A program made the translations under genes and the position numbers. A DNA stretch of 64,000 nt from the human T2T-CHM13v2.0 reference genome, Homo sapiens, in contig CP068257.2 in the NCBI GenBank assembly GCA_009914755.4, positions 29,888,001-29,952,000 on the forward strand. The letters are read 5' to 3'. Positions within the stretch are counted from its first letter, which is position 1. Each line of letters begins with the position of its first letter. The notes under the pieces are model-generated. The model saw nothing but the letters and a program-made list of their open reading frames with translations. It was not told the DNA's origin and searched no databases. Positions 30,911-32,030 of the stretch are shown here, one piece after another.

Positions 30911-31240
30911 GGCCAGGCGCAGTGGCTCACGCCTGTAATCCCAGCACTTTGGGAGGCTTGGAGGAGAGTGGATCATGAGGTCAGGAGTTCAAGACCAGCC
31001 TGGCCAAGATGGTGAAACCTAGTCTCTACTAAAAATACAAAAAAAATTAGCCAGGCACAGTGGCAGGTGCCTGTAATCCCAGCCACTTGGGAGGCTGAGG
31101 CAAGAGAATCGCTTGAACCTGGGAGGCAGAGGTTGCAGTGAGCCAAGATCATGCCACTGCACTCCAGCCTGGGCAACAGAGTGAGACTCCATCTCAAAAC
31201 AAAAACAAAAACAAGAATAAAAGAAAAAAGAAAAAGAACC
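30911..31240 (+). mobile_element. Alu SINE, first of a three-member local Alu array
   Basis: ggccaggcgcagtggctcacgcctgtaatcccagcactttgggaggcttggaggagagtggatcatgaggtcagg ... gactccatctcaaaacaaaaacaaaaacaagaataaaagaaaaaagaaaaagaacca. Confidence 0.93.
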
Positions 31241-31242
31241 AC

Positions 31243-31438
31243 GGCTGGACGTGGTGGCTCACACCTGTAATCCCAGCTACTTGGGAGGTTGAGACAGGAG
31301 AACTGCTTGAACCTGGGAGGTGGAGAGATTGCACCAAGCCGCGATCATGCCATTGCACTCCAGCCTGGGGAACAGAGCGAGGCTCTGTCTCAAAAAAGAA
31401 AAAAAGAAAAGAAAAAGAAAGAAAGAAAAAGAACCATT
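31243..31438 (+). mobile_element. Chimeric, internally deleted Alu (left-arm 5' end fused to right arm), second array member
   Basis: ggctggacgtggtggctcacacctgtaatcccagctacttgggaggttgagacaggagaactgcttgaacctgggaggtggagagattgcaccaagccgcgatcatgccattgcactccagcctgggg ... A-rich tail ... gaaaaagaacca. The junction lies inside the cctgtaatcccagc box shared by both Alu arms. Confidence 0.85.
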
Positions 31439-31446
31439 AAAAAAAA

Positions 31447-31738
31447 TGCCATGGCTCACACCTGTAATCCAGAACTTTGGGAGGCTGAGGCAGGAGGATC
31501 GCTTGAGTCCAGGAGTTCAAGACCAGCCTGAGCACTATGGTAGAACCCCTATCTCTATAGCAAAAAATTAAAAAATTAGCCGGCCATACTGGCATGCACC
31601 TGTAGTCCCAGCTACTCCAAAGGCTGAGGCAGGAGGATCGCTTGAGCCTGGGTGCTTGAGGCTGCAGTGAGCCGTGACTGCACTACAGTCTAGGCAGCAG
31701 AGCGAGACCCTATCTCAAAGAAAAGAAAAAAAGAACCA
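31447..31738 (+). mobile_element. Alu SINE, third array member
   Basis: ccatggctcacacctgtaatccagaactttgggaggctgaggcaggaggatcgcttgagtccaggagttcaagaccagcctgagcactatgg ... gagaccctatctcaaagaaaagaaaaaaagaacca. Confidence 0.92.
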
Positions 31739-32030
31739 TAAGTATAATTATCAAAAAATGTGGAGAATGAAGGAAGTAGGTGAGATGCAATTGCCACTCA
31801 TTATAACAGGAAGCTGAGAATTAAATCATATATTCATACTATTTAGAGATATAAAGATAATCACTAGAAGCACTAAAAACAAAAATGAACAAATGTAATT
31901 GTTTCCAGAGAATATCAGGCTGGATGGGAATAAAACAGGACCGGGGCAGAAGACTGTTACAATACTTTTCAAGAGAAGCGCATCTGTTCTGAGTCTCTTA
32001 ATGCTATATGGAATTTTTACTCTGCACTAC

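What the first reader, a model, noticed from the sequence alone, without database searches (positions are those of the whole stretch)
30911..31745. Second local Alu array: three Alus each followed by the same aagaacca motif, with the middle copy an intra-Alu deletion chimera
Every member ends with a similar purine tail (aaagaaaa(a)gaacca) and then the next Alu starts. This suggests that an Alu plus tail plus flank unit was duplicated in tandem, not inserted three times. The middle copy joins the left-arm 5' end (ggctcacacctgtaatcccagc) directly to right-arm sequence (tacttgggaggttgagacagg). The breakpoint falls in the cctgtaatcccagc box present in both arms. That is the footprint of intra-element homologous recombination.
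Basis: seen in the sequence. Interest (0 to 1): 0.5.

Follow-up and report, generated by a model that had tools for sequence, protein, structure and literature searches.

The report
Three Alus stacked at one site
Three Alu retrotransposons of different ages were inserted one after another into the same spot in a primate genome, each re-copying the same short target sequence, and the middle one has lost 135 bp between two look-alike boxes; this is an ordinary, already described outcome of Alu biology, not a tandem duplication.

Summary
Window 30900-31741 (+) holds a full AluS (30911-31195), a 149-bp AluS-type element (31243-31391) and a 5'-truncated AluJb (~31447-31716). Removing the three Alus restores caattc|AAGAACCATAA|gtataatt, so the motif is a target-site duplication made again at each insertion. 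Alu 1 and Alu 3 belong to different subfamilies (15/19 S states against 14/19 J states; unsupervised clustering agrees). Alu 1 and Alu 2 are no more alike than random AluS pairs, share only CpG decay, differ in divergence (1/88 vs 10/88) and have unrelated tails. Alu 2 has its own perfect 15-bp repeat, AAAGAAAAAGAACCA, built from the end of Alu 1's tail plus the old duplication. That indicates serial insertion. The chimera claim holds: Alu 2 starts with a true Alu 5' end (G1, TCAC box) and runs through CCTGTAATCCCAGC into right-arm sequence, missing consensus positions 36-170. Nine independent elements of the same structure were recovered elsewhere, several with their own duplications, so it is a recurrent within-element deletion at the documented Alu recombination hotspot. 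Ordinary and already known.

The parts
30900..30910 (+). TSD copy c0, AAGAACCATAA, immediately 5' of Alu 1. The top-strand target is caattc|AAGAACC, a YY|RRRR L1-endonuclease-like site.
   Evidence: identical to copy c3, and the two flanks rejoin to give a simple empty site
30911..31195 (+). Alu 1: full-length dimeric AluS body (consensus 1-282), 87.8% identical to AluSx
   Evidence: 15 of 19 S-diagnostic states; falls in the S/Y cluster
31196..31226 (+). Alu 1 A-rich tail, 5' part, with (AAAAC)n-type interruptions
31227..31241 (+). Left copy of the 15-bp direct repeat AAAGAAAAAGAACCA. It consists of the end of Alu 1's tail plus TSD copy c1 (AAGAACCA, 31234-31241) and is read as the left TSD of Alu 2. 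One extra C follows at 31242.
   Evidence: 15/15 identity with 31422-31436
31243..31391 (+). Alu 2: 149-bp AluS-type chimera. The Alu 5' terminus and left-arm box (31243-31262, G1...TCAC) run through the shared box CCTGTAATCCCAGC (31264-31277) directly into right-arm sequence from TACTTGGG (31278 onwards). Consensus positions 36-170 (135 bp) are missing.
   Evidence: the same 147-bp body occurs in L007, L009 and L027
31392..31421 (+). Alu 2 A-rich tail, 5' part, with G-only interruptions
31422..31436 (+). Right copy of the 15-bp direct repeat AAAGAAAAAGAACCA, the right TSD of Alu 2
31429..31439 (+). TSD copy c2, AAGAACCATTA (10/11 match to c0 and c3). It serves as the right TSD of Alu 1 and the left TSD of Alu 3.
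31440..31446 (+). Unexplained A7 run (A8 with the preceding base) between c2 and the recognisable start of Alu 3
   Evidence: no explanation tested
31447..31716 (+). Alu 3: AluJb, 5'-truncated by about 6-12 nt, with a deletion of about 8 nt at consensus 234-241
   Evidence: 14 of 19 J states; 3 of 4 Jb states; falls in the J cluster
31717..31730 (+). Alu 3 A-rich tail
31731..31741 (+). TSD copy c3, AAGAACCATAA, followed by the unique 3' flank gtataatt...

Best explanation
This is a stack of three independent, L1-mediated (target-primed reverse transcription) Alu insertions into one target site, ...caattc|AAGAACCATAA|gtataatt.... Each insertion regenerated the target-site duplication, which is why AAGAACCA(TAA) now stands before Alu 1 and after every tail. 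The most likely order is as follows. (1) AluJb (Alu 3) inserted first, making an 11-bp TSD. (2) An AluS (Alu 1) used the still-intact nick site TC|AAGAACC upstream of Alu 3, with the same 11-bp TSD. (3) A second AluS (Alu 2) inserted into the junction between Alu 1's A-tail and that TSD, creating its own 15-bp TSD, AAAGAAAAAGAACCA. That length matches the 15-16 bp spacing between L1 endonuclease nicks. Alu 2 lacks consensus positions 36-170 because of a deletion between the two homologous CCTGTAATCCCAGC boxes of a single element. Shown here: the anatomy, the subfamily differences, the lack of shared ancestry, the private TSD, and the recurrence of this chimera type. Inferred: the order of insertion (about 80% for the order given), and whether the deletion arose in genomic DNA after insertion (slippage, single-strand annealing or homologous recombination; my preferred reading, about 45%) or by a reverse-transcriptase template jump during insertion (about 30%).
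For: Four copies of the motif lie at Alu boundaries, and a simple empty site can be reconstructed. Alu 1 is S-type and Alu 3 is Jb-type at 19 diagnostic positions, confirmed by unsupervised clustering that made no use of the recalled consensus sequences. The Alu 1/Alu 2 pair has ordinary identity, shares only CpG changes, and has unequal non-CpG divergence, 1/88 against 10/88, p = 0.009. The tails are unrelated. A perfect 15-bp repeat flanks Alu 2. Close head-to-tail Alu pairs are enriched in this window (9 observed against 3.7 expected, p = 0.007), and arrays C and E show the same reuse of a TSD motif in their spacers. [quoted passage not shown] For the chimera: LLR +8.9 bits; G1 and no linker, as in 9/9 independent chimeras and unlike 24/24 right arms with the same box; 4-5 of 8 evaluable chimeras elsewhere have their own TSDs, and their right arms come from different subfamilies.
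Against: No orthologous or empty-site allele could be obtained, so the order and the independence of the insertions are inferred from one haplotype. Alu 2, proposed as the youngest, is the most diverged at non-CpG sites (10.5% against 5.8% over all sites, p = 0.13; 11.4% against 1.1% over the shared 111 bp), although 5 of 36 AluS in the window are at least as diverged. Alu 1 is nominally Alu 2's nearest AluS neighbour in the window, but only by one or two bases (0.838 against 0.829). Zero shared non-CpG changes has little power over 111 bp, because 79% of random pairs also share none, so a duplication immediately after insertion is not strictly excluded for the Alu 1/Alu 2 pair. Exact reuse of the same 11-bp TSD by Alu 3 and Alu 1 requires the same second nick twice. 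The extra C at 31242 and the A7 run at 31440-31446 are unexplained.
Confidence: 0.85

Rival explanations
1. One reading: one Alu+tail+flank unit was tandemly duplicated (unequal exchange or slippage) to give three copies, which later diverged, the middle one suffering an internal deletion.
For: Head-to-tail arrangement; every unit ends in the same ...aaaaagaacca; TRF reports a period of about 195 bp at 83% identity across Alu 1's right arm and Alu 2; the two tails are nearly the same length (38 and 37 nt); Alu 1 is nominally Alu 2's closest AluS in the window.
Against: Alu 3 is AluJb and Alu 1 is AluS. The 83% identity is typical of unrelated AluS pairs (median 82%). There are no shared non-CpG changes, and divergence is unequal (p = 0.009). 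The tail interruptions differ. The middle junction reads AAGAACCA+c, not the AAGAACCATAA+gg that exchange between TSD copies would give. The same test does detect relatedness in the control array at 57841-58418 (top 1.6% of pairs).
Confidence: 0.04
2. Serial insertion, but growing leftwards in order of age (Alu 3, then Alu 2, then Alu 1), each time at the original nick TC|AAGAACC.
For: The non-CpG divergence ranking puts Alu 3 (9.9%) and Alu 2 (10.5%) above Alu 1 (5.8%). The original nick site remains intact at the left edge after every insertion.
Against: This order needs either three extra 5' bases (taa) on Alu 1 that happen to recreate the empty-site sequence (1/64), or a later microdeletion at the Alu 1/Alu 2 junction. 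It also needs 7 extra matching tail bases by chance (about 0.07). The difference in divergence over all sites is not significant (p = 0.13).
Confidence: 0.15
3. Alu 2 is the product of an Alu recombination-mediated deletion between two separate former members of the array: the left monomer of one and the right monomer of the next (type 3 of Han et al. 2007).
For: Events joining a left monomer to a right monomer of another Alu made up 25 of 663 chimpanzee-specific events. The breakpoint box is the documented hotspot. The locus is an array of same-orientation Alus that share their TSD.
Against: Alu 2 is flanked by a perfect 15-bp repeat that includes 7 tail bases. Two different elements would be expected to have different tail ends (chance about 0.07). 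Most independent elements of the same structure elsewhere carry their own matching TSDs (L002, L007, L010, L027), which points to single-element events.
Confidence: 0.12
4. Alu 2 is not a chimera. It is a right arm 5'-truncated at about consensus position 136 (or a free right monomer), and its box mutated to TCAC.
For: BLAST aligns it contiguously to AluSx 137-282. Right arms reading GGCTCAYRCC do exist in normal dimeric Alus (19 of 33 signature hits). T at position 10 is the right-arm consensus state.
Against: Position 1 is G and no tt|A linker precedes it, unlike 24/24 right arms with that box and like 9/9 chimeras. LLR is +8.9 bits towards left arm. Truncation would have to fall exactly at the position homologous to the Alu 5' end. 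The right arm is AluS-type (GAGAAC..GAACC), not FRAM/J-like.
Confidence: 0.04

Closest known systems
Head-to-tail Alu clusters made by insertion into the A-tail or TSD of a pre-existing Alu (Cook et al. 2011, PMC3215922; L1-endonuclease target model of Levy et al. 2010, PMC2836564)
   Same: Same orientation, spacers made only of A-tail plus TSD (47 and about 55 bp), elements of different subfamily and age, a YY|RRRR target, and a 15-bp TSD for the tail insertion that matches the 15-16 bp nick spacing.
   Different: This is three elements rather than a pair. Two of them (Alu 3 and Alu 1) appear to have used the identical first and second nicks, giving the same 11-bp TSD. That is a less common, though described, form of site reuse.
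Alu recombination-mediated deletion chimeras and the Alu 'core' hotspot (Han et al. 2007, PMC2041999; Rudiger et al. 1995 as cited in PMC6071635)
   Same: The breakpoint lies inside the CpG-free TGTAATCCCAGC box, which is the documented hotspot. Left-monomer to right-monomer joins are a recognised class (type 3).
   Different: Here both partners appear to belong to one element (matching 15-bp flanks), so only 135 bp of Alu is lost and no unique DNA is deleted. ARMD as defined involves two separate Alus.
Free right Alu monomer (FRAM) and 5'-truncated Alus
   Same: Monomer-sized (about 150 bp) element consisting mostly of right-arm sequence plus an A-tail.
   Different: Alu 2 has AluS right-arm diagnostic bases, starts with the dimeric Alu 5' terminus (GGC...TCAC box), and has no linker remnant.
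Array at 57841-58726 in the same window (the 'first local Alu array')
   Same: Three same-strand AluS elements separated only by A-rich spacers.
   Different: That array is bracketed by a single TSD-like repeat with no TSD motif in its spacers. Its members share unusual strings, and pair A-B is in the top 1.6% of pairs for identity. It is therefore a better candidate for local duplication or conversion than the target.

Membership tests
Alu SINE (7SL-derived dimer mobilised by L1) | Dimeric left and right monomers joined by an A-rich linker, with about 280 bp of similarity to the Alu consensus | tested here: met
   Alu 1 aligns to consensus 1-282 at 87.8% and Alu 3 to 13-282 at 81.8%. Alu 2 has only positions 1-35 plus 171-282.
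Alu SINE (7SL-derived dimer mobilised by L1) | 3' A-rich tail and flanking target-site duplications | tested here: met
   Tails at 31196-31233, 31392-31428 and 31717-30. TSD copies c0-c3, and a private 15-bp TSD for Alu 2.
Tandem duplication of one Alu+tail+flank unit | All copies descend from one element: same subfamily and shared private (non-CpG) substitutions | tested here: not met
   15/19 S states against 14/19 J states; the elements fall in different unsupervised clusters; Alu 1 and Alu 2 share no non-CpG changes. The last test has low power over 111 bp.
Tandem duplication of one Alu+tail+flank unit | Copies are the same age, so equally diverged, with homologous tails and identical junctions | tested here: not met
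   Divergence 1/88 against 10/88, p = 0.009. Tail identity is 0.76 against 0.68 expected from composition, with different interrupting bases. Junctions differ...CCATAA|gg...CCA|c|gg and ...CCATTA|a7.
Serial TPRT insertion into an existing Alu's tail or TSD | Same orientation, with spacers consisting only of tail plus TSD | tested here: met
   Close direct pairs are enriched in the window (9 against 3.7 expected, p = 0.007).
Serial TPRT insertion into an existing Alu's tail or TSD | The later element has its own direct repeat that includes part of the earlier element's tail | tested here: met
   AAAGAAAAAGAACCA at 31227-31241 and 31422-31436, 15/15 identical.
Serial TPRT insertion into an existing Alu's tail or TSD | Stepwise presence and absence of the elements across primate lineages | not testable with these tools
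   No primate genomes are available. The flank scans of the metagenome and prokaryote collections found nothing.
ARMD chimera between two separate Alus (Han et al. 2007) | Breakpoint within shared Alu homology, typically the hotspot at positions 24-45 | tested here: met
   The breakpoint interval 31263-31277 corresponds to consensus positions 21-35.
ARMD chimera between two separate Alus (Han et al. 2007) | The two flanks derive from different elements (non-matching TSDs), and the ancestral state has two Alus | tested here: inconclusive
   The flanks match 15/15, which argues against two elements. However, 8 of the 15 bases would match anyway in this TSD-sharing array. The ancestral state cannot be tested.
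FRAM or simple 5'-truncated right arm | Starts in or after the linker (tt|AGCC...), with a right-arm-type box (GGCGCGCGCC and its CpG-decayed forms) | tested here: not met
   G at position 1, no linker, and a TCAC box: LLR +8.9 bits. All 24 right arms with that box have tt|A.

The most novel reading that the evidence does not exclude
Elements of the Alu 2 type (Alu lacking consensus 36-170: 5' terminus, shared box, right arm, own TSD) may form a discrete, recurrent class made during insertion itself, by L1 ORF2p reverse transcriptase jumping from the right-arm box to the homologous left-arm box of the Alu RNA. They would then be a countable genomic footprint of template switching, rather than of later DNA recombination. 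The evidence here does not exclude this: there are 10 independent examples, several with intact TSDs, drawn from more than one subfamily. It does not favour it either.
Probability: 0.25. Interest if true: 0.3.

Novelty: already known. Interest (0 to 1): 0.08.

Why it matters
It matters mainly as a correction. A repeated motif after each Alu looks like evidence of tandem duplication, but it is the expected signature of repeated retrotransposition into one L1-endonuclease site and into the tail of a resident Alu. Recognising the fourth, upstream copy of the motif is what resolves the question. Loci like this are useful as small worked examples of target-site reuse (homoplasy risk when Alu insertions are used as phylogenetic markers) and of the instability of the Alu core box. 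They add no new biology. The only mildly open point is whether 135-bp deletions between the monomers arise in DNA or during reverse transcription.

Tried and rejected
(1) Orthologue or empty-site recovery: exact scans with the 5' flank in metagenome contigs and the 3' flank in prokaryote genome contigs found nothing, so no comparative test was possible. (2) Rfam at gathering threshold: only two other Alus in the window reach the Metazoa_SRP threshold, and nothing in the target does; this was uninformative. (3) The window-only likelihood for the Alu 2 5' box turned out to be somewhat optimistic, because the collection scan showed that normal right arms can read GGCTCAY (19 of 33). The conclusion was kept only because position 1 and the absence of a linker separate the two classes perfectly. 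(4) My automatic linker regex misclassified 5 right arms with linker remnants as Alu 2-type; they were reclassified by eye from the printed flanks. (5) The count of shared derived mutations was intended as the decisive test for Alu 1 against Alu 2, but the control showed it has little power over 111 bp (79% of random pairs share none). It is therefore cited only as absence of support, not as refutation. (6) A long TSD for Alu 3 (about 30 bp, suggested by aaaaaatg recurring 5' of Alu 3 and 22 nt 3' of c3) was considered and dropped, because it needs two extra deletions. (7) FRAM identity for Alu 2 was rejected on its AluS-type right-arm bases. (8) The subfamily consensus sequences were written from memory. 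They were cross-checked by unsupervised clustering and by window-derived majority states. Finer assignment (for example Sg-like for Alu 1) was not attempted.

Full report
WHAT IS THERE. The window is primate DNA and is very rich in Alus. A BLAST catalogue finds about 70 Alu segments in 64 kb, 52 of them on the + strand. The target, 30900-31741 on the + strand, contains three elements.
- Alu 1 (30911-31195) is a full-length dimeric Alu, 87.8% identical to AluSx over consensus 1-282.
- Alu 2 (31243-31391) is a 149-bp element.
- Alu 3 (about 31447-31716) best matches AluJb. It lacks its first 6-12 nt and about 8 nt near consensus 234-241.
Each element has an A/G-rich tail ending in ...aaaaagaacca.

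THE MOTIF IS A TARGET-SITE DUPLICATION. There are four within 842 bp, at 30900, 31234, 31429 and 31731, and only two more in the other 63 kb. The Poisson expectation for such a cluster is 0.058, P = 4e-7. The extra copy sits immediately 5' of Alu 1. In full it reads AAGAACCATAA, identical to the copy after Alu 3, and the copy after Alu 2 reads AAGAACCATTA. Removing everything between the outer copies gives a simple empty site...aataatcaattc|AAGAACCATAA|gtataatt.... Its top-strand junction TC|AAGA has the pyrimidine|purine form of an L1 endonuclease target. The canonical site is TT|AAAA, the complement of TTTT|AA, as described in PMC2836564 and PMC3215922. A direct repeat that brackets retroelements and restores a clean empty site is the definition of a target-site duplication.

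TEST OF THE TANDEM-DUPLICATION READING. If one Alu+tail+flank unit had been duplicated, the copies should share subfamily, private mutations, age and tails.
- Subfamily. At 19 positions that separate AluS from AluJ, Alu 1 has 15 S states and 1 J state, whereas Alu 3 has 14 J states and 3 S states, with 3 of 4 Jb-specific states.
- Cross-check on the consensus sequences. I wrote them from memory, so I clustered the window's 51 near-full-length Alus on 81 informative columns without using any consensus. Alu 1 falls in the 42-member S/Y cluster and Alu 3 in the 9-member J cluster. The clusters' majority bases reproduce most of the recalled diagnostic states.
- Alu 2. It has the S state at the five non-CpG right-arm diagnostics (163, 194, 204, 220, 275).
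- Alu 1 against Alu 2, consensus 172-282. Identity is 83.8%. The median for 630 random AluS pairs in the window is 82.0%, and 36% of pairs are at least as similar.
- Shared derived states. All shared derived states of Alu 1 and Alu 2 are CpG transitions.
- Divergence. Non-CpG divergence over the same 111 bp is 1/88 against 10/88 (Fisher p = 0.009), which does not fit copies of equal age.
- Tails. The parts 5' of the shared 15-mer have different interruptions (three C in Alu 1, only G in Alu 2). Their best ungapped identity is 0.76, against 0.68 expected from composition.
- Junctions. The three read CCATAA|ggcc, CCA|c|ggct and CCATTA|a7tgcc.
One caveat: the shared-mutation count has little power over 111 bp, because 79% of random pairs also share none. 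The same statistics do flag relatedness in the window's other triple array: pair 57841/58138 has identity in the top 1.6% and three shared non-CpG states. A duplication of Alu 1 immediately after its insertion cannot be strictly excluded, but nothing supports it and several features contradict it.

WHAT HAPPENED INSTEAD. Alu 2 is flanked by a perfect 15-bp direct repeat, AAAGAAAAAGAACCA (31227-31241 and 31422-31436). This is the last 7 bases of Alu 1's tail plus the first 8 bases of the old TSD. Fifteen bases is the distance reported between the two L1 endonuclease nicks (PMC2836564). The simplest history has three steps.
1. AluJb (Alu 3) inserts at TC|AAGAACCATAA|G.
2. An AluS (Alu 1) uses the same nick, which survives intact at the left edge, with the same 11-bp TSD.
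3. A further AluS (Alu 2) inserts at the junction of Alu 1's tail and TSD.
This order explains why the copy before Alu 2 stops at ...CCA and why the remainder (tta) follows Alu 2's right TSD.
The alternative is leftward growth in order of divergence (Alu 3, Alu 2, Alu 1). It requires three untemplated bases on Alu 1 that happen to recreate the empty-site sequence (1/64), or a later microdeletion. It also requires 7 chance matches in the tails (about 0.07). Against my preferred order, Alu 2 is the more diverged element: 10.5% against 5.8% at non-CpG sites overall (p = 0.13). Still, 5 of 36 AluS in the window are at least as diverged, and several of its changes are clustered. I put about 80% on the preferred order.

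THIS IS A KNOWN AND COMMON GEOMETRY. Cook et al. report a genome-wide excess of direct Alu pairs with spacers of 24 bp or less (inverted:direct ratio 0.073). [quoted passage not shown] In this window alone there are 9 direct pairs within 60 bp, against 3.7 expected from random placement (p = 0.007), and two direct triples against 0.22 expected. Arrays at 24039-24618 and 45285-45888 (- strand) likewise repeat part of their TSD in the spacer.

THE MIDDLE COPY IS A CHIMERA.
- BLAST aligns Alu 2 contiguously to AluSx 137-282, so the alternative of a plain truncated right arm had to be tested.
- Position-weight models were built from the 49 other near-full-length Alus in the window. Alu 2's first 35 nt score +8.9 bits for left arm over right arm. 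True left arms range from 0.1 to 24.0 and true right arms from -29.6 to -0.7. The signal comes from G at position 1 and TCAC at positions 17-20.
- After the box CCTGTAATCCCAGC, the sequence is right-arm (TACTTGGGAGG..GAGAAC..GAACC).
- It is the only Alu in the window with this combination.
- A scan of public metagenome and prokaryote assemblies for the junction signature returned 33 host-derived contigs. Nineteen are normal dimeric Alus whose right-arm box reads GGCTCAY, so that state does occur in right arms and the window-only likelihood is somewhat optimistic.
- All 24 right arms in that set (19 dimers plus 5 with linker remnants) have A at position 1 preceded by the linker tt.
- The other nine (L002, L004, L007, L009, L010, L011, L026, L027, L030) begin GGC/GGT directly against unrelated flank.
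- Alu 2 (cac|GGCTGG) belongs with the nine.
- Where the 3' end could be located, their bodies are 147 bp (L007, L009, L027), which equals 282 minus 135. Alu 2 is 149 bp, including a 2-nt insertion.

HOW THE DELETION AROSE. The box is the documented Alu recombination hotspot (TGTAATCCCAGCACTTTGGGAGG, positions 24-45). Han et al. also describe recombination between a left monomer and the right monomer of a separate Alu (25 of 663 events; PMC2041999). That inter-element route would normally leave non-matching flanks. Alu 2 has matching 15-bp flanks. Among the eight evaluable chimeras elsewhere, four or five carry their own TSDs: L010 10/10, L007 12/12, L002 and L027 slightly diverged, L011 partial. 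Their right arms include both J-type (L004) and S-type, so they are independent events rather than one propagating lineage. They cannot separate a DNA-level event after insertion (slippage, single-strand annealing or homologous recombination between boxes 135 bp apart) from a reverse-transcriptase template jump between the same boxes during insertion. My estimates are DNA-level within one element about 45%, co-insertional about 30%, inter-element about 12%, and not a chimera about 4%.

COMPARISON WITH THE KNOWN, AND VERDICT. Every component is established Alu biology: reuse of an L1 endonuclease site, insertion into a resident Alu's tail or TSD, and deletion at the Alu core box. The locus is a member of these known kinds. 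The only defining feature I could not test is the stepwise phylogenetic presence and absence of the elements, because no primate orthologues are available with these tools. Interest is low.

UNEXPLAINED REMAINDERS.
- The single C at 31242.
- The A7-8 run plus tgcc between the TSD copy and the recognisable start of Alu 3 (31440-31451).
- A post hoc excess of T at Alu position 10 among Alu 2-type chimeras: 6/10 against 11/49 normal left arms, p = 0.011.

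Noticed in passing
window 57827-58740 (+): Three AluS elements (57841-58123, 58138-58418, 58446-58726) are bracketed by a single TSD-like repeat, AGAC[T/C]CTTCTCTT, with purely A-rich spacers. Pair A-B is in the top 1.6% of 630 AluS pairs for identity and shares 3 non-CpG derived states (gagactagcc, acaaagattagctgggcatggtgg). B and C share gccaggcaaggtggctt. This is a better candidate for true local duplication or gene conversion than the target array.
   Followed up: partly
window 24039-24618 (+) and 45285-45888 (-): Two further head-to-tail Alu pairs repeat part of their flanking TSD inside the spacer (ataggc... 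and ccccaaag...). This is the same signature of site reuse or tail insertion as in the target.
   Followed up: partly
whole window: Alu orientation is strongly biased: 52 of 70 elements are on the + strand (binomial p = 6e-5). Alu density is about 30% of the sequence. This suggests a transcribed, gene-rich region with orientation-dependent retention.
   Followed up: no
window 37500-39500 (within the Alu-free stretch 32752-41391): A CpG-island-like block with GC 0.70-0.74 has long overlapping R/P/G/A-rich ORFs on both strands, which are composition artefacts. It is probably a promoter or first exon about 6 kb downstream of the target array. No identification was attempted.
   Followed up: no
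window 31440-31451 and 31764-31771: An A7-8 run followed by tgcc lies between the TSD copy and the recognisable (5'-truncated) start of Alu 3. The string aaaaaatg also occurs 22 nt 3' of the last TSD copy. This could be coincidence, filler DNA at a truncated 5' junction, or the remnant of a longer TSD.
   Followed up: no
loci L002, L004, L007, L009, L010, L011, L026, L027, L030 (host DNA in metagenome contigs): Nine independent Alus have the same structure as Alu 2 (Alu 5' terminus, shared box, right arm, 147-bp body), several with their own TSDs. Including Alu 2, six of ten have T at Alu position 10, against 11/49 normal left arms (p = 0.011, post hoc). This may hint at patchy conversion within the recombined box.
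   Followed up: partly
loci L003, L005, L006, L012, L017, L019, L022, L023, L025, L028 and others: Normal dimeric Alus whose right-arm box reads GGTGGCTCATGCC (one G>T change from the common GCATGCC state) are not rare: 19 of the 33 signature hits. A TCAY box alone is therefore not proof of left-arm origin.
   Followed up: yes
loci L032 (Sutterella massiliensis assembly) and L033 (Bittarella massiliensis assembly): Short, low-coverage contigs in two bacterial isolate assemblies consist of primate Alu sequence, which indicates host-DNA contamination of those public records.
   Followed up: no
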